From contig JACIWQ010000005.1 of the NCBI GenBank assembly GCA_014360895.1, forward strand, positions 1 to 57,423: 57,423 bases of DNA. Reading direction: 5' to 3'. Shown piece after piece: positions 6,154 through 57,423 of the stretch. Below the pieces are notes generated by a model that did no database searches, was not told where the DNA came from, and was given only the letters and a program-made list of their open reading frames with translations. Origin of the DNA: Thermoflexales bacterium. Lineage in GTDB: Bacteria; Chloroflexota; Anaerolineae; B4-G1; DUEL01. Numbering within the stretch: position 1 is the first letter of the stretch; each line of letters starts with the position of its first letter. Position numbers and translations under genes: made by a program.

Positions 6154-7839
6154 ATGCCCGTCCATATCCGCCCCCGGCTGACGCTTCTGATACTCCTGCT
6201 GGCGCCCCTGGCCCTGCTCCTCCTCTGGCGCCTGCTGGACGTCCAGGTCGTTCACGGACTCGCGTATCGCCAGCAGGCCGTTCAGGAACGGACGCACAAC
6301 CTGACGCTGCCCGAACCCCCCCGGGGCTCTATCTCCGATGCCCACGGCTTTCCCCTGGCGGTCAGCGTGCCCCGTTACACCATCTGGGCCAGCCCCGCGT
6401 ACATCAAAGACGCCGGGGCAGTGGCCCAAATCCTGTCTCCGGTCCTCCAGGTTCCCGCCGACACCCTGTCCGCGACGATGGCGTATACATCCCAGGGCGT
6501 GATTCTGGCCCCCTATGCCTCCTGGGAGCAGGGAGAAGTCGTCAAGAAGTTGAAACTGGCCGGAGTCTGGGCAACCCTGCGCTGGCGGCGACAATATCCC
6601 CACCAGACCCTGGCCGCCCACCTGTTGGGCTTCACCGCCTACAGCGGGGAAGGGTTCTACGGACTGGAGGGGTATTACGACCGCGCGCTTCGCCCCCAGA
6701 CCGTAGCCCAGGTCGTGGAAACGGACCCCTCTGGCCTGCGGCCGCTCCCCCATGAGGAAGGCCAAGTGCCCACCCCTCAACGGGGCAACCACCTGGTGCT
6801 GACGCTGGACCTGGCCATGCAGATGGCCGCCGAGGAGGAACTGGCCCGCGCCCTGGCGGAGTATCAGGCAGATAGCGGCCTGGTCATCGTGATGGCCCCC
6901 CAGACGGGGGCCATCCTGGCGATGGCCGTCCAGCCGTCCTTTGACCCGAATCAGTACGAAGTGTACATGGATGAGAGGGGGGAGGAAGTTTTCCTGAACC
7001 CGGCCCTCAGCGCCCAGTACGAGCCCGGCTCCATTTTCAAAATTATCACCCTGGCGGGGGCGCTGGATAGCGGCGCGGTCTCCCCGCAGGATACGTATGT
7101 GGATACCGGACAGACAGAGGTCGGCGGACAGGTCATTACGAACTGGGACGGGAAGGCCTACGGGGAGCAGGACCTGGTCGGCCTGATGGGGCACTCCTTG
7201 AACGTGGGGGCGGCCTGGCTGGCGACCAAGATGGGCCCGGAGACGTTCTACCGCTACGTCCGGGCCTTTGGCTTCGGACAGCCCACCGGGGTGGACCTCC
7301 AGGGAGAGGTGGCCGGGACGGTCCATATGCCGGGGGACCTGGACTGGTACGATTCGTACCTGGGGGCCAATGCCTACGGGCAGGGGATCGCGGTGACGCC
7401 GGTGCAGATGGCGGCGGCGGTGGCGGCGGTCGCCAACGGCGGCCACCTGATGCGGCCCTACGTCGTCGCCCGGCAGATTCGGCCCGACGGGTCGGCCCTG
7501 GAATCCCGTCCCGTCGTCCGGGGGCAGCCCATTTCTCCCGAAACGGCGCGGGCCGTCTCGGAGATTCTGGCCCAGGCAGTGGAGGAGTATATGCCCCAGG
7601 CCGCCGTCCCTGGCTACCGGGTCGCCGGGAAGACGGGCACGGCCCAGATTCCGGTCCCCGGCGGCTACGACCCGCGCGGGACCATCGCGTCCTTCGTGGG
7701 CTACGGGCCGGTGGAGGACCCGCACCTGCTGATTCTGGTGCGGCTGGACCGTCCCCGGACCTCGCCCTGGGCCTCCCAGACCGCCGCCGTCGTCTTCCAG
7801 CGACTGGCGACGCGGCTGTTCCCGATGAGCAGGGATTAA
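6154..7839 (+). CDS. ftsI: Class B penicillin-binding protein (FtsI/PBP2B-like)
   Basis: RGSISD, EPGSIFK (SxxK), SLN (SxN), KTGTAQ. Confidence 0.92.
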   Translation: MPVHIRPRLTLLILLLAPLALLLLWRLLDVQVVHGLAYRQQAVQERTHNLTLPEPPRGSISDAHGFPLAVSVPRYTIWASPAYIKDAGAVAQILSPVLQVPADTLSATMAYTSQGVILAPYASWEQGEVVKKLKLAGVWATLRWRRQYPHQTLAAHLLGFTAYSGEGFYGLEGYYDRALRPQTVAQVVETDPSGLRPLPHEEGQVPTPQRGNHLVLTLDLAMQMAAEEELARALAEYQADSGLVIVMAPQTGAILAMAVQPSFDPNQYEVYMDERGEEVFLNPALSAQYEPGSIFKIITLAGALDSGAVSPQDTYVDTGQTEVGGQVITNWDGKAYGEQDLVGLMGHSLNVGAAWLATKMGPETFYRYVRAFGFGQPTGVDLQGEVAGTVHMPGDLDWYDSYLGANAYGQGIAVTPVQMAAAVAAVANGGHLMRPYVVARQIRPDGSALESRPVVRGQPISPETARAVSEILAQAVEEYMPQAAVPGYRVAGKTGTAQIPVPGGYDPRGTIASFVGYGPVEDPHLLILVRLDRPRTSPWASQTAAVVFQRLATRLFPMSRD

Positions 7840-8112
7840 CCGCAGAGCGCGCAGAGGGCGCAAAGGCAAAAAACTTTCTTCGCGTTCTTTGCGTCCTTTG
7901 CGGTTTCAGAGAGATTCACCGCAGAGCGCGCAGAGGGCGCAAAGGCAAAAAACTTTCTTCGCGTTCTTTGCGTCCTTTGCGGTTTCAGAGAGATTCACCG
8001 CAGAGCGCGCAGAGAAGACTTTTGAGTGTGGGACACTGCTTGCAGTTGTCCCACAAAGAGCGCAAAGGGCGCAGGAGTGATTAAATATTTTTTCTTTGCG
8101 TTCTTTGCGGTT
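7839..8112. repeat. 79-bp tandem duplication of a 9-mer-period hairpin (ACCGCAGAGCGCGCAGAG...CTTTGCGTCCTTTGCGGT) plus a degenerate third copy
   Basis: Units start at 7839, 7918 and 7997; the arms are reverse complements of each other. Confidence 0.9.
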
Positions 8113-12739: not shown

Positions 12740-14158
12740 GATAGTGCGACCCGGGACCTGGACGGGAAGCGGGTGGTGGTGCTGGGGCTGGCCCGGCAGG
12801 GGGTGGCGATGGCCCGCTTCCTGGCCCGCGCGGGCGCCCGGGTCACCGTCTCCGACCTGAAGACGAAGGCGGAACTGGCCGACGCCGTCGCCGCGCTGGC
12901 CGACCTGCCCGTCCGCTATGTGTTGGGCGACCACCCGATGTCGCTCCTGCGGGGGACCGACCTCATCTGCGTGAGCGGCGGGGTGCCGCTGGACATCCCG
13001 CTGCTGGTGGAGGCCCGGAAGAAGGGCATCCCGCTGGTGAGCGACGCGCAGTTGTTCCTGGAGCGCTGCCCCGCGACGGTGGTCGGCATCACCGGCTCCG
13101 CAGGCAAGACGACGACCACCGCGCTGGTGGGGGAGATGTGCCGGGCCGCCGGGCGCCGAACCTGGGTCGGCGGCAACATCGGCAACCCGCTCTTGGACGA
13201 CCTGGAGCACATCGCGCCCGACGACCTGGTGGTGATGGAACTCTCCAGTTTCCAACTGGAACTGGTGACGGTGAGCCCGCCGGTGGCCGCGGTGCTCAAC
13301 ATCACGCCCAACCACCTGGACCGGCACAAGACGATGGAGGCGTACATCGCGGCCAAGCGGCGCATCGTCGCTTTCCAAAAGCCGGAGGATTGGGCCGTCC
13401 TGGGGTTTGACGACGCCAACGCGCGGGCGCTGGCGCTGGAGACGCCGGCCCGGGTGGTCTTCTTCAGCGGCGGGGCGCAGGTGGACCGGGGCGCCTACAA
13501 GACCAACGGCCTGCTGGCCCTGCGACTGGGGGAAGCCGAGGAGGTCATCTGCCGCCGGGAGGAGGTCCGGCTCCGGGGCGACCACAACCTGCTGAACGTC
13601 CTGGCGGCCTGCGCGCTGGCGGGGGTCGTCGGCGTGCCCGTGGAGGCGATGCGGCAGGTCATCCGGACCTTCGCCGGGGTGGAGCACCGGCTGGAGTTCG
13701 TCCGGGAGTGGCGCGGGGTCCAGTGGTACGACGACTCTATCGCCACCGCGCCGGAGCGGGTGGTGGCAGCCCTGCGGTCGTTCAGCGAGCCCATCGTCCT
13801 GCTGGCCGGGGGGCGGGATAAGAAACTGCCCTGGGAGGAGTTCGCGCAGGAGGCCGTGGGGCGAGTCCGCTACCTCATCACCTTCGGCGAGGCCGGGGAG
13901 ATGATTGCGGGCAAGGTGGAAGAGGCGGCGCGGGTCGCTCCGGGACGTCTGGAGGGAATCCAGCGGGTGCGCACGCTGGAGGAGGCGGTAGAGGCCGCTG
14001 CGCGGGTCGCCCGCCCGGGGGACGTGGTGCTCCTCTCCCCCGGCGGGACCAGTTTTGACGCCTTCCGGGACTTCGCCGAGCGCGGCGACCGGTTTAAGGA
14101 ATTGGTGCGGAGTTTAACCGCCGAGGACGCAGAGGGCGCAGAGGAAATAAAGAGGTGA
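12701..14158 (+). CDS. murD: UDP-N-acetylmuramoyl-L-alanine--D-glutamate ligase
   Basis: GITGSAGKTTT, GGNIG, ELSSFQL, NHLDRH, EHRLE, DDSIAT, LLSPGGTSFD. Confidence 0.96.
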   Translation: MSQFASHLRSSASDSATRDLDGKRVVVLGLARQGVAMARFLARAGARVTVSDLKTKAELADAVAALADLPVRYVLGDHPMSLLRGTDLICVSGGVPLDIPLLVEARKKGIPLVSDAQLFLERCPATVVGITGSAGKTTTTALVGEMCRAAGRRTWVGGNIGNPLLDDLEHIAPDDLVVMELSSFQLELVTVSPPVAAVLNITPNHLDRHKTMEAYIAAKRRIVAFQKPEDWAVLGFDDANARALALETPARVVFFSGGAQVDRGAYKTNGLLALRLGEAEEVICRREEVRLRGDHNLLNVLAACALAGVVGVPVEAMRQVIRTFAGVEHRLEFVREWRGVQWYDDSIATAPERVVAALRSFSEPIVLLAGGRDKKLPWEEFAQEAVGRVRYLITFGEAGEMIAGKVEEAARVAPGRLEGIQRVRTLEEAVEAAARVARPGDVVLLSPGGTSFDAFRDFAERGDRFKELVRSLTAEDAEGAEEIKR

Positions 14159-14275
14159 CTCTGCGTTGCTCTGCGCTCTCTGCGGTGAATGAACCGCAAA
14201 GAACACAGAGGGCGCAGAGGAAATGAAATAAAAAAATAAGTTAGAATCTCCGGGTCCTCTGCGCTCTCCGCGGTG
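14116..14275. repeat. Two tandem 9-mer-period hairpins (ACCGC.GAG..CGCAGAG / CTCTGCG..CTC.GCGGT)
   Basis: Same family as 7839; the first arm lies inside the murD 3' end. Confidence 0.88.
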
Positions 14276-14281
14276 AGATAC

Positions 14282-15457
14282 ATGAGAGAGTCGCGTCCAC
14301 CCGATTATCTGCTGATGCTGGCGACGGCCGCCCTGGTCCTGCTGGGGCTGCTGATGGTCTACAGCACGACCTTTGACTGGGGCTACGGCGAGTACGGCGA
14401 TCCGCTCTACTGGCTCAAGCAGCAGGTCCTGTGGCTGGTCATCGGGGCCGCCGTGGCCGTGGTGCTGGCCCGGACGGATTATATGCTCTGGCGGGACTGG
14501 GCGGTGCCCCTCCTGGGCGGGACGCTGGTCCTGCTCCTGCTGGTCCTGGTCGTCGGGCGGCCGCAGTGGGGGGCCCAGCGCTCCCTGTTGGGGGGCTCCG
14601 TCCAGCCGGCGGAACTGGCGAAGGTCGCGACGGTGGTCTACGCGGCCGCGTGGGCCTCGTCCAAAGGGGAGCGCATCCGCGACCTCTCCTACGGCCTGAT
14701 TCCCTTCTCCGTCTGGATGGGGGTGGTGGCGGGACTGGTGGCCCTGCAGCCGGACCTGAGCGCGATGGCCGTCCTGGTCTTTGCCGGGTTCCTGGTCTTC
14801 TTCCTCTCCGGCGCGCACATCGGGCAGTTGTTCGTCGCCGGGCTGATGGGCGCCGTCGTCTTCTGGGGGCTGATTACCGTCTACCCGCACGCGCACGAGC
14901 GGTTTGAGGCCTTCCTGGCCGGGCTGAAGGACCCGTCGCTCCTGCCGTACCACCCGCAGCAGGCCCTCTACGCGCTGGCCAGCGGCGGCCTCTTCGGCGT
15001 GGGCCTGGGGGAGGGACGGGTGAAGTTCTACCTGCCCGCCGCCCACACCGACGCGGTCTTCGCCGTCGTCGGGGAGGAGTTGGGGCTGGTCGGGTGCCTG
15101 CTGGTGGTCGGGCTCTTCGGCGTCCTGGCCTGGCGGGGGTTCCGCATCGCGCTGCGCGCGAAGGACAGTTTCGGCGGACTCCTGGCCGCCGGGCTGACGG
15201 GGCTCCTGGTCTTCCAGGCGTTGCTGAACATGGGCGTCATCGCGTCGCTGCTGCCCTTCACCGGGACCAATCTGCCCTTTATCAGCAAGGGCGGCTCGTC
15301 GCTGGTGAGTTCGCTGGCGGCCGTGGGGCTCCTGGAGAGCGTCGCGCGGGGGCGCCCGCCTCGCCGCTGGAAGGGGGAGGAAACGCAACCGCAAAGAGCG
15401 CAGAGGGCGCAAAAGGAAACCAGAAATTCTTCGCGGTCTTTGCGTCCTTTGCGGTGA
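14282..15457 (+). CDS. ftsW: SEDS peptidoglycan polymerase FtsW
   Basis: QPAELAK, LQPDL, LPAAHTD, GEELG, LLPFTGTNLPFISKGGSS; located between murD and murG. Confidence 0.94.
   Translation: MRESRPPDYLLMLATAALVLLGLLMVYSTTFDWGYGEYGDPLYWLKQQVLWLVIGAAVAVVLARTDYMLWRDWAVPLLGGTLVLLLLVLVVGRPQWGAQRSLLGGSVQPAELAKVATVVYAAAWASSKGERIRDLSYGLIPFSVWMGVVAGLVALQPDLSAMAVLVFAGFLVFFLSGAHIGQLFVAGLMGAVVFWGLITVYPHAHERFEAFLAGLKDPSLLPYHPQQALYALASGGLFGVGLGEGRVKFYLPAAHTDAVFAVVGEELGLVGCLLVVGLFGVLAWRGFRIALRAKDSFGGLLAAGLTGLLVFQALLNMGVIASLLPFTGTNLPFISKGGSSLVSSLAAVGLLESVARGRPPRRWKGEETQPQRAQRAQKETRNSSRSLRPLR
15388..15457. repeat. 9-mer-period hairpin inside the ftsW 3' end
   Basis: ACCGCAAAGAGCGCAGAGGGCGCAAA...TTCGCGGTCTTTGCGTCCTTTGCGGTGA. 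Confidence 0.88.
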
Positions 15458-15470
15458 GTAAGGAAGCGCG

Positions 15471-18339: not shown

Positions 18340-18912
18340 ATGTGTCGGCTGGCCGACTATTGTATCTACGACTCCGCGGAACGCTCTACTTATTCTGCAG
18401 AAGATAGCTCTTTGTCCATTACTGTCCAAAAGGATGAACGACTTCTGGTGTATGACCTGGAGACCTATCTGGGCAAACGTCCAATCAAAAGGCCAGACCT
18501 CCTGCTGATTGGCCGGGTCGGAGAAGGGCCCTGGATTGTCGTGCTGATGGAAACCAAGAGCGGAACGGGCTGGGAAAAGGCGATAAAACAATTCCGCGAA
18601 GTTCTGCCTGCATTAGGAAAAGGCGGAGAGGAGGGCGGGGAACAACACCATCAGGAATGCGCTGACCGACTCCCTCTGGGTAGAGACCACAGGGTGGTCG
18701 CTGTGGTGCTTGGTCAGGTGGGGAAAGAATACAGAAAGTCCCTGCAGCCGGGTGGGTTCGGAGACCGAAGGAGAAAGCAAATTCGCGATATCTCTTGGAG
18801 AGGCAAGCCTGTACCGGTGGTCCCGCCAATGTCGGGAAAATCGTTTCGCTCGCTCAGGCAGTTCTGGATTCAGTTGGGCGTTCTCCCACGCTCCGGGTCA
18901 ACAGCGCGATGA
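18340..18912 (+). CDS. Hypothetical protein, PD-(D/E)xK nuclease-like
   Basis: KRPDLLLI...VLMETKSG; begins 3 nt after the ATPase; its stop overlaps the murC start. Confidence 0.65.
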   Translation: MCRLADYCIYDSAERSTYSAEDSSLSITVQKDERLLVYDLETYLGKRPIKRPDLLLIGRVGEGPWIVVLMETKSGTGWEKAIKQFREVLPALGKGGEEGGEQHHQECADRLPLGRDHRVVAVVLGQVGKEYRKSLQPGGFGDRRRKQIRDISWRGKPVPVVPPMSGKSFRSLRQFWIQLGVLPRSGSTAR

Positions 18913-20363
18913 TGCTGGATTTGCGGACTGTTCGCCATATTCACTTCATCGGCATTGGCGGGGCGGGGCTCTCGGCGATGGCCCGGGTGCTGATGGAGCG
19001 AGGGGCCGTCGTCTCCGGCTCCGACCTGACCCTCTCTCCGGCGGCGGAAGCGCTGATGCGGGACGGCGCGCGGGTCTATGTGGGCCACCGGGCCGAGAAC
19101 GTGGCGGGCGCGGACGTGGTCATCGCCTCTTCGGCGGTGCGGGAGGACAACGTGGAGGTCCAGGCGGCGCGGGCGGCGGGCATCCCGGTGCTCCGCCGTG
19201 CGCAGGTGCTGGGCCAACTGATGGAGGGACACATCGGCATCGCCGTCGCGGGGACCCACGGGAAGACGACGACAACGGCGATGATTGCGACGGTTCTCTG
19301 GGAGGCCGGCCTGGACCCGACCTTCATCGTCGGCGGGACGCTGGTGGGGCCGGGGACCAACGCCCGAGCGGGCGGCGGACCGCATTTCGTCATTGAGGCC
19401 GACGAGTACGACCGGACCTTTCTGGCGCTGACGCCGCGCATCGCCGTGGTGACCAACGTGGAGCACGACCACCCGGATTGCTACCCGACTTTTGAGGACT
19501 TCCGGGCCGCCTTCGCCGAGTTCGTCGCCCGGATTCCGCCCGACGGCCTGCTGGTGGCCTGCTGGGACCACCCTGTGGCGCGGGAACTGGGCCGGGAACG
19601 GCGGGCCCAGGGCGGACGGGTCGTCTTCTACGGCTTCGCCGCAGGCGGCTGCTTCGCTGCGCTCGCAGTGACAACCTCGCCGCGCGGCGGCCGGGAACGG
19701 GGCGCAGAGTGGACGGCCCGGCGTGTCCACGCCAACCCGTCCGGCGGGACGGACTTCTACGCGGTCCGGTCGGGGCGGACGCTGGGGGAGGTCCGGCTGC
19801 GGGTGCCGGGGGAGCACAACGTCCTGAACGCGCTGGCCGCGCTGGCAGTGGCCGAGGAGGTCGGCGTGCCCTTTCCCACGGCCCGGGCCGCGCTTTCGGG
19901 CTTCCGGGGCGTGGGGCGCCGCTTTGAGGTCAAGGGGGAGGCGGAGGGGGTGGTCGTCGTGGACGACTACGCTCACCACCCGACGGAGATTCGGGCGACC
20001 CTGGCAGCGGCCCGTCAGCGGTTCCCCGGACGGCCGGTCTGGGCGGTCTGGCAGCCGCACACCTACAGCCGGACGAAGGCGCTGCTGGAGGAGTTCGCGG
20101 AGGCTTTTGACCAGGCCGACCACGTGGTGGTGCTCCCGATCTACGCCGCGCGGGAGTCGGACACCCTGGGGGTCAGCAGCGCCGACGTGGTGGCCCGGAT
20201 GCGCCACCCCGACGCGCGGGTCGTGGGCTCCCGGGAGGAGGCGGTGGCGCTCTTAGGGACGGAGGTCCGGCCCGGCGACGTGGTCCTTACCCTGGGCGCG
20301 GGGGATGGGGATAAGGTGGGGGAGTGGTTGCTGGAGGCGCTGAGGCGGGGGGCTGAAGCGTGA
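18909..20363 (+). CDS. murC: UDP-N-acetylmuramate--L-alanine ligase, with a repeat-derived insertion
   Basis: HFIGIGGAGLS, AGTHGKTTT, EADEYD, DHPD, GVGRRF, DDYAHHPTE, QPHTYSR. Confidence 0.97.
   Translation: MMLDLRTVRHIHFIGIGGAGLSAMARVLMERGAVVSGSDLTLSPAAEALMRDGARVYVGHRAENVAGADVVIASSAVREDNVEVQAARAAGIPVLRRAQVLGQLMEGHIGIAVAGTHGKTTTTAMIATVLWEAGLDPTFIVGGTLVGPGTNARAGGGPHFVIEADEYDRTFLALTPRIAVVTNVEHDHPDCYPTFEDFRAAFAEFVARIPPDGLLVACWDHPVARELGRERRAQGGRVVFYGFAAGGCFAALAVTTSPRGGRERGAEWTARRVHANPSGGTDFYAVRSGRTLGEVRLRVPGEHNVLNALAALAVAEEVGVPFPTARAALSGFRGVGRRFEVKGEAEGVVVVDDYAHHPTEIRATLAAARQRFPGRPVWAVWQPHTYSRTKALLEEFAEAFDQADHVVVLPIYAARESDTLGVSSADVVARMRHPDARVVGSREEAVALLGTEVRPGDVVLTLGAGDGDKVGEWLLEALRRGAEA
19648..19691 (-). 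repeat. 44-bp copy of an intergenic REP-like element, in frame inside murC
   Basis: 43/44 identical to the reverse complement of 29090-29133. Confidence 0.92.
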
Positions 20364-20414
20364 AACGTGAAACGTGAAGCGTGAAACGTGAGGCGTGAAA
20401 CGTGAAACGTGAGG
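20354..20414 (+). repeat. Heptamer array TGA(A/G)(A/G)CG x8
   Basis: Directly visible; contains the murC stop; same unit at 52408-52435 and, in reverse, at 56193-56275. Confidence 0.95.
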
Positions 20415-20435
20415 TGGGAAGCGGGGGAGGTGCCG

Positions 20436-21356: not shown

Positions 21357-22286
21357 ATGAACCTTGCTTCGCTTCTGGAGTGGGCCTCGGGGTTGGGAGA
21401 GCGGGCGCGGCGGGAAGAGCCGCTGGCGTCCTACACCGCGATGCGCGTCGGCGGGCCGGCGGACCTGCTGGTGGTCTGCCGGACGACGGAGGAGGTGGTA
21501 GAGGCAGTGGAGCGGGCGCGCGCGGCGGGGGTGCCATGGCGGGTCCTGGGCGGCGGCTGCAACGTCCTGGTCTCCGACGCCGGGGTGCGGGGGCTGGTGG
21601 TGGTCAACCGGGCCGACCGGACCCGCATAGAGGCCGACGGGACGGTCTGGGCGGAGGCCGGGGCGCCGATGGCCGCGCTGGCCCGGGAGACGGCGGCCCG
21701 GGGCCTGGCCGGGCTGGAGTGGGCGGCAGGATTGCCGGGGACCGTCGGCGGGGCGGTGGTGGGGAACGCGGGCGCCTTCGGGGGCGACGTAGCCTCGGTG
21801 CTGCGCAGCGTCACCCTGCTGGAGCGGGACGGGAGTATCGCGGAGCGGCCCGCGGACTGGATGGCCTTCGCCTACCGGGAGAGCCGGATCAAACGGTTGC
21901 CGCCGCAGGAGCGGCCCGTCGTCCTGGCGGCGACGTTCTGCCTGACGCCCGGCGACTCGGCCGTGCTGGCGGCCCGGGTGGAGGAGATTCTGACCTGGCG
22001 GCGGACCCGTCATCCCTCGGGGGCGACAATGGGGTCTACCTTCAAGAACCCTCCCGGCAACCACGCGGGGCGGCTGATAGAGGCGGCGGGGCTGAAGGGG
22101 TATCGCATCGGCGGGGCGATGGTCTCGGAACTACACGCCAACTTTCTCATCAACACCGGCTCCGCCACCGCCGCCGACGTCCGGGCCCTCATCCGGCACA
22201 TCCAGGCCGAGGTGGAGCGACAGTTCGGCATCCGGCTGGAGCCGGAGGTGGAGTTTATTGGGTGGGACGCGGATGAACGCGGATGA
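21357..22286 (+). CDS. murB: UDP-N-acetylenolpyruvoylglucosamine reductase
   Basis: RVGGPA, LGGGCN, GLPGTVGGAVVGNAGA, YRES, GSTFKNP, HANF, LEPEV. Confidence 0.96.
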   Translation: MNLASLLEWASGLGERARREEPLASYTAMRVGGPADLLVVCRTTEEVVEAVERARAAGVPWRVLGGGCNVLVSDAGVRGLVVVNRADRTRIEADGTVWAEAGAPMAALARETAARGLAGLEWAAGLPGTVGGAVVGNAGAFGGDVASVLRSVTLLERDGSIAERPADWMAFAYRESRIKRLPPQERPVVLAATFCLTPGDSAVLAARVEEILTWRRTRHPSGATMGSTFKNPPGNHAGRLIEAAGLKGYRIGGAMVSELHANFLINTGSATAADVRALIRHIQAEVERQFGIRLEPEVEFIGWDADERG

Positions 22287-22314
22287 ACGCGGATGAACGC
22301 GGATAAACGCGGAT
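22263..22314 (+). repeat. 10-mer array (G/A)(A/G)ACGCGGAT x5
   Basis: Directly visible; contains the murB stop. Confidence 0.95.
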
Positions 22315-27838: not shown

Positions 27839-27918
27839 GAATCAAAAGAATCAGGAGAATCAAAGAATCGGGAGAAAACAGGAAACAATCTGCGTTTATC
27901 CGCGTTCATCCGCGTCCC
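27839..27918 (+). repeat. GAATC(A/G)-based 8/9-mer array followed by a solo 10-mer right arm (ATCCGCGTT)
   Basis: Visible in the ftsA-ftsZ spacer. Confidence 0.85.
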
Positions 27919-29067: not shown

Positions 29068-29232
29068 GTCATTGCGAGGCGGCAAAACTGCCGCCACGCG
29101 GCGAGGTTGTCACTGCGAGCGCAGCGAAGCAGCTGCTCGCCTCGGCGCGAGCGCCTTCGGCGCGTGGCGCGGCGTGGCCGAAGCACTCCCTTCAGTTTCC
29201 CGGGGGATTGCTTCGCTTTGCTCGTCGTGACA
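29068..29232. repeat. REP-like palindromic mosaic (GTCA(T/C)TGCGAG...GATTGCTTCG...TGAC)
   Basis: Same family as 44238-44505 and 48238-48308. Confidence 0.8.
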
Positions 29233-37380: not shown

Positions 37381-38421
37381 ATGGTCCCAGAGAGCCTGCG
37401 GAAGGGAATCGCCGCGGCGAAAGGAGGTCGGAAAGGGGAAGCTCGCGCCGCTTTCCGGGCCGTGCTGGCAGAGGACCCGACCCATGAGACGGCCCTCCTC
37501 TGGCTAGCTTACCTGGCCGATGATCCCCGGGCCTCGCTGGCCTACATCGCGCGGGCGCTGGAAGCCCACCCCGATAGCCGGCGAGCCCATGCGGCATTGC
37601 GCTGGGCTCGCCGACGGCTGGCAGAGCAGACCGGGCCCTCTCCCGCCGTCCCCTCTCAGGCTACCCGCCCCACCGAGGTCCCCCAGGCCACCCGCCCGGC
37701 AGGGAGTAGGCCCCCCACCTCATCCGCCCGGGCCCGCCGAAGGACGGTCCGTTGGTGGTTGCCCATTCTCTGGATTTTCCTGAGCCTGCTTTGCATTAGC
37801 ATGCTCTGGCGGGACGGATGGACTCCCTATGCGCTGATCGCGATGTTCGCCCCCTCCCCCACGTACACCTCTACCCCGACGGCAACCCCGACGCCGACAC
37901 CCACTTCCACCCCGACTTTTACCCCGACCCCCACCCCCACGGCGACCCCCACGCCGACCCCGACGCCCACATCAACTCCCACGCCGACGCCCACCCCAAC
38001 CCCATCGCCGACGGCGACCCGCCGTCCGCCCACGGCGACCCCCGTCCCACCGCCCGCGCCGGTGAACGAAGACCGCTGGATTGACGTGGACCTCACCCGC
38101 CAGATACTGACCGCCTATGAGGGGGATGTCCCGGTGCGGGTGATCGTCGTCTCCACCGGCCTGCCCCGAACGCCGACGCCGACCGGGCAGTTTCGCATCT
38201 GGGCCAAACTCCGCTACGATGATATGTACGGGCCCGACTACTATCTCCCCGACGTCCCCTACGTGATGTACTTCTACGGCGGCTACGGCCTGCACGGCAC
38301 CTACTGGCATAACAACTTCGGTCGCCCGATGAGCCACGGTTGTATCAATCTCCCCACTCCCGAAGCGGAGTGGCTGTTCAACTGGGCCGAGGTGGGGACG
38401 CTGGTCAATATTCACTACTGA
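37381..38421 (+). CDS. L,D-transpeptidase (YkuD) with N-terminal TPR-like helices, TM helix and Pro/Thr stalk
   Basis: WIDVDLTRQ, VSTG..TPTP.G.F, HGTYW...SHGCINL (HxX14-17HGC); start could be 37372. Confidence 0.9.
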   Translation: MVPESLRKGIAAAKGGRKGEARAAFRAVLAEDPTHETALLWLAYLADDPRASLAYIARALEAHPDSRRAHAALRWARRRLAEQTGPSPAVPSQATRPTEVPQATRPAGSRPPTSSARARRRTVRWWLPILWIFLSLLCISMLWRDGWTPYALIAMFAPSPTYTSTPTATPTPTPTSTPTFTPTPTPTATPTPTPTPTSTPTPTPTPTPSPTATRRPPTATPVPPPAPVNEDRWIDVDLTRQILTAYEGDVPVRVIVVSTGLPRTPTPTGQFRIWAKLRYDDMYGPDYYLPDVPYVMYFYGGYGLHGTYWHNNFGRPMSHGCINLPTPEAEWLFNWAEVGTLVNIHY

Positions 38422-38445: not shown

Positions 38446-38547
38446 AAACTTCATCGGAAATAGGACGCGGATGAACGCGGACGAGCGCAGATTCTCCTTG
38501 GAAAAAGATACGTGCTGCGCCACTTGGCGCTATTTCCGATAAAGTCT
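38446..38547. mobile_element. Putative MITE of about 100 bp with 18-bp terminal inverted repeats (copy 1)
   Basis: AAACTTCATCGGAAATAG...CTATTTCCGATAAAGTCT; near-identical inverted copy at 45622-45719. Confidence 0.75.
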
Positions 38548-38561
38548 GTTCTTGCAGTTTC

Positions 38562-44204: not shown

Positions 44205-44237
44205 CCACAGACAGCGGACAACAGTGATCCGTTCCGA

Positions 44238-44505
44238 GGGGGTCATTGCGAGCCGCCGAAGGGGGCGAAGCAATCCCCCCGTCGCATTGTGGGGATTGCT
44301 TCGGGCACTCCGTGCCCTCGCAATGACCCCGTGGCCGTCATTGCGAGCCGCCGAAGGGGGCGAAGGGCCACTCCGAAGGCCATGGCCCGAGAGGCCTCGC
44401 CTCGTGGGGCTCGCCCGAGGCGCAATCCCCCGGTGCTTCTGGGGATTGCCACCACGCTCTGCTCGTGGCAGGCTTTCGGGCGCTGCGTGCCCTCGCAATG
44501 ACCCC
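44238..44505. repeat. Two tandem REP-like palindromes GTCATTGCGAG...GCAATC / GATTGC...CTCGCAATGAC
   Basis: Elements at 44238-44330 and 44337-44505 with identical 5' arms. Confidence 0.9.
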
Positions 44506-45609: not shown

Positions 45610-45621
45610 CGGGGAAATTCC

Positions 45622-45719
45622 AGATTTTATCGGAAATAGCGCCAGGTGGCGCAGTACGTATCTTTAAGGGAAATCTGCGCTCGTCCGCGTTCATCCGCGT
45701 CCTATTTCCGATGAAGTTT
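45622..45719. mobile_element. Putative MITE (copy 2, inverted relative to copy 1)
   Basis: AGATTTTATCGGAAATAG...CTATTTCCGATGAAGTTT; 48 contiguous identical nt with copy 1. Confidence 0.75.
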
Positions 45720-52150: not shown

Positions 52151-52440
52151 CAGTAGTTCCGCAGCACCAGGGGGAGGTAGACGCGGTACTGCACTGCCAC
52201 GCCGCTCCAGAAGCCACCGACCAGGGTGTAGCCTCCACCGGTCAAGGCAACCCCCGCCTCCGGCTGGCCGACGGTGCCGCCCAGAGCGTAGGCGCCGCCC
52301 GTGCTCCAGGTATAGCCCCCGCCGTCCACCGTGCTCCAGGTCAGGTCGTAGCCGCCGGTCTGGGCCAGGGCGACGGGGGCCAGAAGGGCGAGGAGGGCAA
52401 GCAGGAGTGAGGCGTGAAGCGTGAAACGTGAAGCGTTCAT
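52150..52440 (-). CDS. Small secreted Gly-rich protein with a VYLPLVLR tail
   Basis: Signal peptide ALA-Q; YDLTWSTVDGGG...GTVGQP...GGFW; C-terminal YRVYLPLVLRNY. Confidence 0.8.
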   Translation of the reverse strand: MNASRFTLHASLLLALLALLAPVALAQTGGYDLTWSTVDGGGYTWSTGGAYALGGTVGQPEAGVALTGGGYTLVGGFWSGVAVQYRVYLPLVLRNY

Positions 52441-52450
52441 CGCTGCCCTC

Positions 52451-56160: not shown

Positions 56161-56192
56161 GATCACATCGGTCCATACGCCCTCCTTCCCTG

Positions 56193-56275
56193 CTCACGTT
56201 TCACTCTTCACGTTTCACTCTTCACGCTTCACTCCTCACGTTTCACTCTTCACGCTTCACTCCTCACGTTTCACT
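56193..56275. repeat. Alternating heptamer array (14-bp period) YTCACGY-TTCACTC
   Basis: Directly visible; reverse-strand relative of the 20354 array. Confidence 0.92.
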
Positions 56276-57423
56276 ACGGCACCTCCTGCCACATCCCCGA
56301 TGAGGTATCCCACCCGGCGGCCTGGATCACTTTCCCGTCCAGCCGGCGCACGTAGAAGGGGACGCCGATGGACTCCGCGATCCGCATCTGCCACTGGGTA
56401 TAGAAGCCCTGTTCGGGAGCCGTGGCCCAGCCCAGGCCATCCCGCACATGGGAATTGGTCCGCCAGAGTTTGCCGAACCCACGAATCGGCTGATAGAGCC
56501 CCGCCGGGGGCACAATGGACGGGTCGCTCTCCATCTCGCCGTCCACAAAGGTATCCGCGTACTTCTCGTAGCGGCCGTCGTTGTAGAGAACCAGGATGAC
56601 CTTCTGGTAGACGTTGGACTCGGTGCGTACCTCCTGCAGCCAGATCATCCGACCCCGCTCAAAGGGCTCCTCGGCGGCCCAGGTGGTGCTGGCTTCGTAG
56701 GCCGGACAGGTCCGTTCACTGGTGGGGAAGAAGTAGGAGTACCGGCAGGGCCAGGACACCACCGCCGTGGCCTGGACACTGTTGCCCGCCGCGTCCCGCG
56801 CGACCAGGGTCATCACAGGATCGCGGTACAGGGTCATCCCAATGTCCACCGTCCGGGTACCCTCGCCGGGCGGCGTGGCCTCCCAGTACAGAGGGAAGCG
56901 CATCTGGGTACCGCTCCAGATGCCCGCGCCCGTCGCACCCGTGGTCCGCCAGTAGAACCGGATCCGCTTGCCCGCCGGGGGCAGGTCCTGTACCACCTCC
57001 GCGGTGAAGGCGAGAATGGCCAGCCCGGACGGCGGTGGGGCGGTGGGCGTCACGCAGACCACGCCGCAGCCGCCGGGACATGCCCCGGGAGTGGGGCACA
57101 TCAGGACCCCGCCGGAGGGGCAAGGCGGGGGCGTGCAGACCGGAGCCGCCGTGGCCGTGGGCGTCCCCGGCACCACAATCTGCACCCAGATGACGACACC
57201 GAAGCGGGTACCGTCCGGCGCCTGGAACTGGTAGTTGGCCCGGTAGGTGCCGGGCGCGGACGGGGCGACCAGGCTCACGCTCACATCCGTCTGCGCGCCG
57301 GGGGCCAGCGCGGGCACGTCCACCGCCGGGCCCCCCATTGGGGCACCGGAGATGAAGACCAGTTTCGTCCCCGGCTCCCAGGCGCAGGTTCCGGAGTTGC
57401 GCACCCGCCAGGTCTTGACGAAG
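56274..57423 (-). CDS. Secreted NBR1-Ig-like domain protein (5' end outside the window)
   Basis: KTWRVRNSGTCAW, PG...DVSV.L.AP..PG.Y, G..FG..IWV.I; C-terminal FERG.M and PIRGFGKLW motifs. Confidence 0.8.
   Translation of the reverse strand, partial: FVKTWRVRNSGTCAWEPGTKLVFISGAPMGGPAVDVPALAPGAQTDVSVSLVAPSAPGTYRANYQFQAPDGTRFGVVIWVQIVVPGTPTATAAPVCTPPPCPSGGVLMCPTPGACPGGCGVVCVTPTAPPPSGLAILAFTAEVVQDLPPAGKRIRFYWRTTGATGAGIWSGTQMRFPLYWEATPPGEGTRTVDIGMTLYRDPVMTLVARDAAGNSVQATAVVSWPCRYSYFFPTSERTCPAYEASTTWAAEEPFERGRMIWLQEVRTESNVYQKVILVLYNDGRYEKYADTFVDGEMESDPSIVPPAGLYQPIRGFGKLWRTNSHVRDGLGWATAPEQGFYTQWQMRIAESIGVPFYVRRLDGKVIQAAGWDTSSGMWQEVP

What the first reader, a model, noticed from the sequence alone, without database searches (positions are those of the whole stretch)
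19630..19700. An intergenic palindromic element is inserted in frame inside murC
Seen: 19648-19691 matches the reverse complement of intergenic 29090-29133 at 43/44 nt and reads GCFAALAVTTSPRGG. It expands the loop between VVFYG and AEWTA to 23 residues; I expect only a handful in other MurC proteins. Established: Rickettsia palindromic elements insert into coding sequences in a similar way. Inference: the repeat family was recently mobile and is tolerated in a surface loop of an essential enzyme.
Basis: partly seen in the sequence, partly recalled or inferred. Interest (0 to 1): 0.8.

Follow-up and report, generated by a model that had tools for sequence, protein, structure and literature searches.

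The report
Hairpin repeat inserted in-frame in murC
A 57-base piece of a common DNA hairpin repeat has recently been copied, in frame, into a loop of the essential cell-wall enzyme MurC of a heat-loving Chloroflexota bacterium; this is real, but it is a kind of event already known from Rickettsia and other bacteria.

Summary
Window 19645-19691 matches the reverse complement of 29090-29136 at 45/47. The full insertion is 57 nt, or 19 codons (19635-19691, FAAGGCFAALAVTTSPRGG). It is missing from murC in all 28 relatives that cover the site, 11 of them in the same genus.

An independent re-assembly of the probable source run crosses both junctions at the same depth as the gene, about 11x, and shows no empty-site form.

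The AlphaFold model has mean pLDDT 90.5. It puts the insert in the only disordered loop, between two beta-strands of the middle domain.

The donor is a module of an abundant repeat family, GTCATTGCGAG..CGAAGCAATC. Its core 11-mer occurs 259 times against 1.4 expected. The family has expanded in only some species of the genus.

In 5 of 5 tested genomes from other phyla, the same motif adjoins a small GIY-YIG nuclease gene, on both sides in four of them. That is the Ssn/SRM arrangement. No such gene was found in this genus.

I found three more in-frame copies in this genome, in gyrA, leuS and a subtilase gene.

The class is known from Rickettsia palindromic elements and intragenic CGTC-tagged REPs. 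This scan has noted it many times on other DNA, mostly in CPR bacteria. This is a new member of a known kind.

The parts
18909..20363 (+). murC (UDP-N-acetylmuramate--L-alanine ligase). The start codon is uncertain (ATG at 18909; the ORF is open from TTG 18795). The end includes the stop codon.
   Evidence: ORF list. Pfam Mur_ligase, Mur_ligase_M and Mur_ligase_C, E 1e-25 to 1e-27. PDB MurC hits at E about 1e-100. The model matches 1p31/1p3d at TM 0.89-0.93. It is the only murC-like match in the genome at E<=1e-40.
19635..19691 (+). The 57-nt (19-codon) in-frame insertion, FAAGGCFAALAVTTSPRGG. CGGC occurs at both junctions, so the boundaries can slide left by up to 4 nt.
   Evidence: The empty site in congeners is ttctacggc|cgggag. 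There is a 57-nt internal gap in 9 of 10 same-genus nucleotide alignments; the tenth shows 63 gap columns. Logan contigs of run X1 cross both junctions with 0 differences.
19645..19691 (+). The 47-nt core, near-identical to 7 other genomic copies (1 to 8 mismatches).
   Evidence: Closest copies: C256:7741-7787 (46/47), then C216 and the window's own 29090-29136 (45/47 each).
19650..19672 (-). One short repeat unit embedded in the insert, GTCACTGCGAG-CGCAG-CGAAGCA. It is a variant of GTCATTGCGAG..CGAAGCAATC and reads on the strand opposite to murC.
   Evidence: Read directly from the sequence. Ten exact units of this 23-nt length exist in the genome.
29068..29232 (.). Intergenic composite element: an outer unit with nested modules and an inverted partner.
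   Evidence: The flanks of the 47-mer here are shared with copies on C1, C36 and C216 but not with murC.
44239..44330 (.). A canonical head-to-head dimer of the same family, shown for reference.
   Evidence: the repeat finder I20. As ssDNA, 44237-44332 (96 nt) folds at -38.4 kcal/mol, z -7.6, matched by 0 of 200 shuffles. The monomer folds at -13.3 kcal/mol, z -2.7.

Best explanation
A 57-bp hairpin module of a dispersed repeat family was copied into murC after this species split from its sequenced congeners. The family's unit is (N)GTCATTGCGAG - variable GC hairpin - CGAAGCAATC, often found as head-to-head dimers. It survived for three reasons: its length is a multiple of three, it has no stop codon in the frame it landed in (5 of its 6 frames are open), and it sits in a beta-hairpin loop of the MurC middle domain that tolerates extra length. 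The family belongs, by architecture, to the CGTC-tagged REP / Ssn-related-motif superfamily. These are ssDNA hairpins that in other phyla flank a small single-domain GIY-YIG (Ssn-type) nuclease gene.

Shown: the insertion, its recency, its donor family, the loop position in a model, three further in-frame copies in the same genome, and the GIY-YIG association of the identical motif in other phyla.

Inferred: the copying step. I favour (about 0.45) spread as single-stranded hairpin modules helped by a trans-acting hairpin nuclease whose gene is missing from these metagenome bins. Such a gene, flanked by repeat arrays, would assemble into a tiny contig that binning discards. For the murC event itself, the donor and target share microhomology (CTTCGGC against CTACGGC, and CGGC at both junctions). 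That fits a copy-choice (template-switch) insertion at a replication fork just as well (about 0.4).
For: Insertion: 28 of 28 relatives lack it. There is a single 57-nt internal gap in 9 of 10 same-genus nucleotide alignments. A relative at depth 137 in hot-spring run X3 also skips the segment.

Not an artefact: in X1, one contig of 7009 nt (depth 11.1) covers 19300-19674 and one of 729 nt (depth 10.8) covers 19655-20050, both with 0 differences. A 40-nt shared repeat contig has depth 41.5, about 4 copies. X1 shows no joint that skips the insert.

Recency: the core is 46/47 and 45/47 identical to other copies, against 80-90% murC nucleotide identity to congeners.

Family: CTCGCAATGAC occurs 259 times against 1.4 expected. 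There are 120-121 loci and 304 repeat regions totalling 32.6 kb. Genus counts of the 11-mer are 259, 206, 108, 31, 30, then 13 or fewer. Outside the genus the counts are 0-4. The six G005 copies of the 37-mer lie at loci other than those of G000.

Other in-frame copies with empty sites in relatives: gyrA has +27 nt, with SVIASEARQT replacing M, absent in all 15 relatives aligned. leuS has a VIASEAKQ insert of 7-9 residues, absent in all 15 relatives aligned. The subtilase gene holds two units in G000 and one in G005, a remnant that looks to me like a degenerate unit in six congeners, and nothing in two more distant relatives.

Loop: pLDDT is below 50 only at 246-263. Another genus (G015) has an unrelated, single-copy 16-residue insert a few residues away.

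Nuclease link: in 5 of 5 genomes tested (two Bradyrhizobium, a Patescibacteria, a Chloroflexus, a Pedobacter), one small GIY-YIG ORF has the identical motifs next to it. They lie on both sides in four. In the Chloroflexus genome they were seen downstream only, with 1500 nt upstream examined and motif-free. This is the arrangement described by Chenal et al. 2025 (PMC11893778, sections read).
Against: No small GIY-YIG gene was found in any of the 14 genomes of the genus. Thirteen show only long GIY-YIG-bearing ORFs (446-1182 aa, mostly about 620-690), which I read as UvrC, plus one weak 224-aa ORF; G012 gave no match at all. tblastn with three correctly read motif-flanked GIY-YIG proteins finds nothing in this genome, best E 0.24. 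The published survey also scores the cultured Thermoflexus hugenholtzii as lacking an SsnA homolog and as not enriched in SRM.

The published SRM search string does not match this family. It gives 51 hits against 40-47 in shuffles, and none falls in the repeat loci.

Only contigs were laid, not raw reads. A larger insert bounded by two copies of the 40-nt core is therefore not strictly excluded, although depth 41.5 fits the assembled copy number.

No independent assembly holds the insert. The protein database holds only the window's own protein (1 of 22 candidates). The junction gave 0 hits in metagenome contigs, and the variant left arm gave 0 hits in genome contigs.

The in-gene copies fold no better than shuffled sequence (z -0.6 to +1.4). 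The gyrA event is not a clean insertion, because ATG was replaced.
Confidence: 0.85

Rival explanations
1. Assembly or binning artefact: the assembler threaded a repeat copy into murC, or collapsed a larger interruption, so the real gene either lacks the insert or is broken.
For: The genome is a 262-contig metagenome bin. The 40-nt core is shared by several loci, and the k=31 graph cannot link the two junctions through it. No second assembly or database protein carries the insert.
Against: Both junction-spanning contigs in X1 have 0 differences. They include bases unique to the murC copy: the left arm TTCGCCGCAG, which is exact only in murC, and the C at 19685. They have the gene's own depth (11.1 and 10.8), and no empty-site contig is present. 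The core's depth of 41.5 fits the assembled copy number. The insert is exactly 19 codons and open. Three analogous in-frame copies exist in other genes on other contigs.
Confidence: 0.05
2. Pure copy-choice or microhomology-mediated template switching, with no element-encoded or element-specific enzyme. Abundant GC-rich hairpins stall forks, and pieces get copied into nearby or similar sequence.
For: Six of seven bases upstream of the murC site match the donor's upstream flank (CTACGGC against CTTCGGC), and the alignment runs 58/64 across the junction. CGGC sits at both junctions. There is no clear target-site duplication. The gyrA event replaced a codon rather than inserting cleanly. No nuclease partner was found in 14 genomes of the genus.
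Against: Bursts from 0-6 copies to 100-259 copies among close species are hard to get from rare replication errors. The same is true of near-identical modules at non-orthologous loci in two species. The motif is conserved base for base across many phyla and sits beside GIY-YIG genes there. That argues for recognition by a protein.
Confidence: 0.3
3. The segment is ancestral or functional MurC sequence, a lineage-specific loop, and the intergenic copies derive from it or resemble it by chance.
For: The loop varies in length among MurC proteins: +2 residues in one family of relatives and +16 in G015.
Against: It is absent from all 28 relatives, including 11 congeners. A 37-nt exact match is expected 0 times by chance. 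Seven other genomic copies lie inside larger intergenic elements.
Confidence: 0.01

Closest known systems
Rickettsia palindromic elements (RPEs; Ogata et al. 2000 Science 290:347, seen only as cited and summarised in the review PMC10969869, passages read)
   Same: Short palindromic repeats copied in frame into unrelated housekeeping genes. They are read through as extra peptide segments that appear compatible with the fold, and many copies are also intergenic.
   Different: The review gives RPEs as about 150 bp, in ten families, in reduced genomes of intracellular alphaproteobacteria, with 44 integrations in unrelated metabolic genes. Here the inserts are 27-57 nt (about 200 nt in the subtilase). 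The host is a free-living thermophilic Chloroflexota with 65% GC. I confirmed four gene hits among about 120 loci.
CGTC-tagged REPs, including intragenic copies (Di Nocera, De Gregorio & Rocco 2013, BMC Genomics 14:522, PMC3733652; passages read)
   Same: A stem-loop unit preceded by a (C/T)GTC tag, with a stem that begins with A-T pairs, frequent head-to-head dimers and a mostly intergenic location. Copies inside genes encode 20-30 residues, often in replication and repair genes. RPE-4 and RPE-6 belong to this class.
   Different: The paper reports CGTC repeats in five phyla, not in Chloroflexi, where it found GTAG repeats. It gives stems of 8-9 bp and loops of 4-5 nt. Here only 36 of 162 units have CGTC, while 91 have GGTC. 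The conserved stem is 5 bp (ATTGC/GCAAT), followed by an internal loop and a variable inner hairpin. Its list of intragenic REPs (Additional file 3, an .xls) was not read.
Ssn-related motifs (SRM/NTS) with Ssn GIY-YIG ssDNA nucleases (Chenal et al. 2025, Nat Commun 16:2388, PMC11893778; abstract, sections 6, 7 and 17, passages and one supplement search read)
   Same: Hairpin repeats of 20-50 nt with an oriented GTCA head. They occur in hundreds of copies and in arrays on both sides of a small single-domain GIY-YIG gene. I reproduced that arrangement for this exact motif: the motifs adjoin such a gene in 5 of 5 other genomes, on both sides in four.
   Different: The published degenerate SRM string does not match this family. 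No Ssn-like gene was found in this genus. Their table lists Thermoflexus hugenholtzii as not enriched and without SsnA. [quoted passage not shown] The words 'in-frame' and 'intragenic' do not occur in its main text.

Membership tests
MurC (Mur ligase family) | Three Mur ligase domains (N-terminal catalytic, middle ATP-binding, C-terminal) | tested here: met
   PF01225, PF08245 and PF02875 all score above their cut-offs. Best PDB hits are MurC at E 8e-102.
MurC (Mur ligase family) | MurC fold and conserved residues intact despite the insert | tested here: met
   Model pLDDT 90.5 and pTM 0.90. TM 0.89-0.93 and rmsd 1.9 A to 1p31/1p3d. The 120 columns invariant across all 26 aligned MurC sequences include this protein.
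In-frame intragenic palindromic repeat (RPE-like) | The segment is absent from orthologs and present as dispersed copies elsewhere in the genome | tested here: met
   28 of 28 orthologs lack it. There are 7 other copies of the 47-mer.
In-frame intragenic palindromic repeat (RPE-like) | The reading frame is kept and the host protein fold is not disturbed | tested here: met
   57 nt equals 19 codons, with no stop. The insert is the only low-confidence loop of the model. Whether it is translated was not tested.
CGTC-tagged REP (Di Nocera 2013) | CGTC (or TGTC/CCTC) tag next to the stem | tested here: inconclusive
   GTC is fixed by my search pattern. The base before it is C in 36, T in 23, G in 91 and A in 12 of 162 units.
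CGTC-tagged REP (Di Nocera 2013) | Stem of 8-9 bp starting with A-T pairs, and a loop of 4-5 nt | tested here: not met
   The stem starts AT but is 5 bp (ATTGC/GCAAT), followed by an internal loop and a variable inner hairpin. Unit lengths are 23-31 nt, with nested forms of 53-71 nt.
CGTC-tagged REP (Di Nocera 2013) | Frequent head-to-head dimers, mostly intergenic | tested here: met
   A strict pattern finds 24 dimers. The dimer at 44237-44332 folds with z -7.6. Only 4 gene hits were confirmed among about 120 loci.
Ssn-related motif (SRM; Chenal 2025) | Matches the published degenerate SRM search string and is enriched over shuffles | tested here: not met
   51 hits against 40-47 in 5 shuffles, and 0 hits inside the family's loci. 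The paper's own table gives enrichment of about 0.52 for T. hugenholtzii.
Ssn-related motif (SRM; Chenal 2025) | Arrays of the motif flank a small single-domain GIY-YIG gene | tested here: inconclusive
   For the identical motif, the motifs adjoin such a gene in 5 of 5 genomes of other phyla: on both sides in 4, and seen downstream only in 1. This was not met in this genome or genus, where 13 of 14 genomes show only long GIY-YIG ORFs that I read as UvrC, plus one weak 224-aa ORF, and one genome has no match.
Ssn-related motif (SRM; Chenal 2025) | The hairpin is bound and cut as ssDNA by the cognate nuclease | not testable with these tools
   This needs a biochemical assay.
MITE (IS-derived) | Terminal inverted repeats, a target-site duplication and a parent IS | tested here: inconclusive
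   CGGC occurs at both junctions, but this may be microhomology. The arms are imperfect. The two Y1 transposase genes and the seven PF05635 genes of the genome are flanked by other repeats.

The most novel reading that the evidence does not exclude
A variant of the Ssn-type hairpin repeat, invisible to the published SRM search string, has burst to about 120 loci in a few species of a thermophilic Chloroflexota genus in which no Ssn-like nuclease gene can be found. In one species it has put peptide inserts into at least four genes, three of them housekeeping genes (murC, gyrA, leuS). If the nuclease is truly absent, these hairpins can spread without it, for instance by copy-choice at microhomology. 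The genus would then be a natural test bed for how this repeat class moves and how proteins gain loops from it.
Probability: 0.25. Interest if true: 0.6.

Novelty: new member of a known kind. Interest (0 to 1): 0.4.

Why it matters
It is a clean, dated example of a selfish hairpin repeat adding a 19-residue loop to an essential enzyme without breaking it. It occurs in a phylum and lifestyle (thermophile, 65% GC) where this had not been described in the papers I could read. It comes with sister genomes that hold the empty site, and with three parallel cases in the same genome.

It shows that the published SRM pattern misses at least one widespread hairpin variant that sits beside GIY-YIG genes in four other phyla.

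Practically, such inserts inflate loop lengths in alignments. They also generate spurious peptide motifs such as VIASEAKQ, CFAALA.T and AARND in annotation.

It does not change what is known about the kind of element.

Tried and rejected
Rfam at gathering thresholds over the whole window gave 0 matches.

A full-text search for the two 11-mers returned 23 papers. The 20 listed all looked unrelated by title and abstract, apparently chance primer matches. A search for Ssn/GIY-YIG/hairpin/inserted/coding returned only the Chenal paper as relevant. I therefore found no paper on this motif in Chloroflexota, within those searches.

Two regular-expression screens for GIY-YIG motifs gave 0 hits. They covered 594 ORFs of at least 70 aa and 985 ORFs of at least 50 aa, taken within 600 nt of 80 cross-phylum motif loci. 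The screen is crude. The Pfam search of whole genomes superseded it.

The Y1 transposases (2) and PF05635 genes (7) of this genome are bordered by other repeat types and are not partners of this family.

Genes lying between close pairs of repeat loci looked like ordinary genes by eye: a sulfur-carrier-like gene, an AbrB/PIN pair, a radical SAM gene and an M48 peptidase. None looked like a nuclease.

C249:10186-10238 lies in an open frame that is the antisense of two ABC-type genes, so it is not coding. Seven lone 9-mer hits and four of the five lone 11-mer hits examined had no unit-like partner. The fifth 11-mer, at C2, does form a unit.

The 16-residue MurC insert of G015 is single-copy in its genome at up to 3 mismatches, so it is not a repeat.

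Runs X2 and X19 cover the stretch only in part, with repeat-derived pieces. They say nothing about the junctions.

The left-junction 34-mer and the 37-nt core each gave 0 hits in metagenome contigs. The variant left arm gave 0 hits in genome contigs. The insert-region protein search found only the window's own protein.

In one search, the ORFs I cut from L287 and L295 were on the wrong strand. Only the three proteins from L282, L290 and L296 count.

Complex prediction was not used. No binding claim is made.
Full report
**Observation.** The window's murC gene (ORF ending at 20363; Pfam Mur_ligase, Mur_ligase_M and Mur_ligase_C) contains a repeat at 19645-19691. This 47-nt stretch is 96% complementary (45/47) to 29090-29136 in an intergenic region. 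The 37-nt core occurs exactly twice in the window and in none of 100 shuffles. In the murC frame it reads GCFAALAVTTSPRGG.

**Extent of the insertion.** I searched 30 relatives. Twenty-eight had a murC covering the site: 11 of the 13 same-genus genomes, 5 of the same family and 12 of the same order. Of the other two, G009 matched only the N-terminus and G010 gave no match.
- All 28 lack 19 residues, FAAGGCFAALAVTTSPRGG.
- At the DNA level, congeners read ttctacggc|cgggag and this genome has 57 extra bases, 19635-19691.
- This is the only internal gap in 9 of 10 same-genus nucleotide alignments. The tenth has 63 gap columns.
- CGGC occurs at both junctions, so the boundary can slide by up to 4 nt.
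- The 10 bases to the left of the 47-mer are not random filler. Against the closest genomic copy (C256:7741-7787) the alignment runs 58/64. It covers a diverged left arm (GGCTTCGCCGCAGG against GGCCACGCCGCGAG) and even the target's own upstream bases (CTACGGC against CTTCGGC).

**Artefact check.** The window is contig C208 of a 262-contig, 3.57-Mb bin with 64.6% GC.
- One public run (X1, flagged as the possible source) holds all sampled words.
- Its independent Logan contigs include a 7009-nt contig (depth 11.1) covering 19300-19674 and a 729-nt contig (depth 10.8) covering 19655-20050. Both have 0 differences, and each crosses one junction.
- The shared 40-nt core forms its own contig at depth 41.5, about four times the gene's depth.
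- No contig in X1 joins across the insert.
- A relative in a hot-spring run (X3, depth 137, 56 differences over the two laid pieces) skips 19635-19699, with 8 other letters between. That is the empty site.
- Raw reads were not available to me, so a longer insert bounded by two cores is unlikely but not excluded.
- No other assembly holds the insert. The 5.8-billion-protein search on residues 236-275 returned only the window's own protein (1 of 22 candidates). Exact scans for the left junction and for the variant left arm found nothing.

**Position in the protein.** I gave a 26-sequence MurC alignment to AlphaFold2.
- The model has mean pLDDT 90.5 and pTM 0.90.
- Its only segment below pLDDT 50 is 246-263. 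The insert is residues 243-261, counting from the ATG at 18909. It lies between strands 237-243 and 268-275.
- Foldseek matches H. influenzae MurC (1p31/1p3d) at TM 0.89-0.93 and rmsd 1.9 A.
- In the phmmer alignment, the insert follows the YGF that aligns with YGF of 1gqq.
- From my recollection of the MurC structures, this is the small antiparallel sheet of domain 2, away from the ATP and UDP-MurNAc sites. I did not measure distances.
- The same loop carries +2 residues in one family of relatives. In G015 it carries an unrelated 16-residue insert that is single-copy in that genome. The loop is therefore permissive.
- murC is the only copy in the genome at E<=1e-40.

**The repeat family.** Eight copies of the 47-mer exist in the genome, with 0-8 mismatches.
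- The seven others lie inside larger intergenic elements whose flanks murC does not share.
- The building block is GTCA[TC]TGCGAG, then a variable GC-rich hairpin, then CGAAGCAATC. There are 175 exact units, mostly 23-31 nt, plus nested forms of 53-71 nt.
- The core 11-mer CTCGCAATGAC occurs 259 times against 1.4 expected.
- The family occupies 120-121 loci and 304 repeat regions totalling 32.6 kb.
- A canonical dimer at 44237-44332 folds as ssDNA at -38.4 kcal/mol, z -7.6. The monomer has z -2.7.
- The copies inside genes are short units that fold no better than shuffled sequence.
- Rfam has no match.

**Evidence of recent movement.**
- Core 11-mer counts in the genus are 259 (this genome), 206, 108, 31, 30, 13 and 11, then 0-6 in six further genomes. 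The 17 genomes outside the genus have 0-4.
- The 37-mer module is found in this genome (6 copies), G005 (6) and G013 (1), and in none of the 28 others.
- The flanks of the G005 copies map to other places in this genome than its own copies.
- murC is 80-90% identical at the DNA level to congeners, while the insert's core is 45/47 to 46/47 identical to other copies.

**More in-frame copies in the same genome.** Screens for repeat units inside open, GC3-rich frames, followed by ortholog comparison, gave three further cases.
- gyrA (Pfam DNA_topoisoIV plus the GyrA C-terminal domain). At C200:4550-4576, GTCATTGCGAGCGAAGCGAGGCAAACC adds 27 nt, and SVIASEARQT replaces a single M. It is absent in all 15 relatives aligned. 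A second GyrA/ParC-like paralog exists on C248.
- leuS. At C12:6373-6399, a nearly identical unit reads VIASEAKQT in a variable linker. It is absent in all 15 relatives aligned.
- A subtilase gene (Peptidase_S8). At C190:29112-29309, two units (about 66 residues) are present in this genome and one in G005. Six congeners carry a stretch (ARSESEC-like) that looks to me like a degenerate remnant. Two more distant relatives have nothing there.
- Lone 9-mer hits inside genes were chance matches.
- Five of the six frames of the murC insert are open. By inspection, the conserved unit has a stop in only one frame.

**What kind of element this is.** Earlier notes of this scan pointed me to Chenal et al. 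2025 (PMC11893778).
- That paper describes hairpin repeats (NTS/SRM) that flank small GIY-YIG ssDNA nucleases (Ssn) in many phyla. [quoted passage not shown] Its main text does not contain 'in-frame' or 'intragenic'.
- I tested this here. By record titles they come from Alpha- and Gammaproteobacteria, Bacteroidota, Cyanobacteria, Patescibacteria, Chloroflexota, Planctomycetota, Zixibacteria, Desulfobacterota and others.
- In 5 of 5 such genomes, one small GIY-YIG ORF has these motifs next to it. They lie on both sides in four. In the Chloroflexus genome they were seen downstream only, with the 1500 nt upstream examined and motif-free.
- Membership of the published SRM class fails on the letter. 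The degenerate SRM string gives 51 hits against 40-47 in shuffles, and none falls in the family's loci.
- Only 36 of 162 units carry the CGTC tag of Di Nocera et al. 2013, and the stem is 5 bp rather than 8-9.
- No small GIY-YIG gene was found in this genome or in any of the 14 genomes of the genus. Thirteen have only long GIY-YIG ORFs that I read as UvrC, and G012 gave no match.
- The published table lists Thermoflexus hugenholtzii as not enriched and without SsnA.
- Metagenome bins tend to lose short, repeat-flanked contigs, so this absence is weak evidence.

**Mechanism.**
- Shown: a discrete 57-nt module, also found nested inside other units of the family, now sits in murC.
- Inferred: how it got there. 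The species-specific bursts and the cross-phylum conservation beside a nuclease gene favour a protein-assisted, ssDNA-hairpin route. The microhomology at the murC site, the lack of a clear target duplication and the untidy gyrA junction fit copy-choice at a fork.
- I put these at about 0.45 and 0.40.

**Comparison and novelty.**
- In-frame palindromic repeats in housekeeping genes are known from Rickettsia RPEs (review PMC10969869).
- They are also known from intragenic GTAG/CGTC REPs, many in replication and repair genes (PMC3733652). That paper reports CGTC repeats in five phyla, not including Chloroflexi.
- This scan has recorded the same class many times on other DNA. 167 notes in at least 124 genomes hold the search words, and the listed ones are mostly from CPR bacteria. 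It has also recorded a different repeat in frame in a glycosyltransferase gene of this same genome.
- The finding is therefore correct and well supported, and it is a new member of a known kind.
- The points worth keeping are the motif variant that the published pattern misses, the apparent absence of the nuclease in a genus with fresh bursts, and four dated gene insertions with empty sites in sister genomes.

Noticed in passing
G000:C200:4550-4576 (locus L308), outside the window: gyrA carries a 27-nt in-frame repeat unit. SVIASEARQT replaces M, and it is absent in all 15 relatives aligned.
   Followed up: yes
G000:C12:6373-6399 (loci L328/L329), outside the window: leuS carries a nearly identical unit in the same orientation and frame (VIASEAKQT). 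It is absent in all 15 relatives aligned. The gyrA and leuS copies are closer to each other (25/27) than to any intergenic copy in this genome. I have no explanation for this.
   Followed up: partly
G000:C190:29112-29309 (locus L262), outside the window: A subtilase gene has a hypervariable site. It holds two repeat units here, one in G005, a stretch that looks like a degenerate remnant in six congeners, and nothing in two distant relatives. This looks like stepwise gain and decay of repeat-derived peptide.
   Followed up: yes
G000:C8:5542-5575, outside the window: A different near-perfect palindrome (34 nt) lies in an open, GC3-rich frame of what looks by eye like a GH38-type mannosidase gene. 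It may be another in-frame repeat of another family. It was not compared with orthologs.
   Followed up: no
L014:977-1024 (G015 murC): Another genus has an independent 16-residue insert a few residues downstream in the same MurC loop. It is single-copy in that genome.
   Followed up: yes
window 20354-20432, 22263-22313, 27887-27917, 52403-52442, 56171-56282: Intergenic arrays of 7-14-nt tandem units (for example TGAAACG/TGAAGCG and GGATGAACGC), with inverted partners elsewhere. Elsewhere in the genome, similar arrays border the seven PF05635 (23S rRNA IVS protein) genes.
   Followed up: partly
window 38446-38548 and 45621-45719: Two adjacent inverted repeat pairs (54 nt at 96% and 45 nt at 93%) lie about 7.1 kb apart. 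They may be the ends of a mobile segment or a pair of repeat-array spacers.
   Followed up: no
window 7829-8014, 14107-14227, 15378-15460: Another dispersed repeat family of about 79 nt (..CCGCAGAGCGCGCAGAGGGCGCAAAGG..), in tandem and dispersed copies.
   Followed up: no
window 37841-38020: An imperfect 12/18-nt periodic tract rich in CCC/ACC/CCG codons, probably a Pro/Thr-rich linker if it is coding. It shows 70% complementarity to 2755-2885.
   Followed up: no
G000:C21:209-553 and C50:7078-7413, outside the window: Two Y1 (IS200/RAYT-type) transposase genes. The one on C50 is bordered by yet another hairpin repeat type (GGCGTCAACGAAGGTTGACGCC..).
   Followed up: partly
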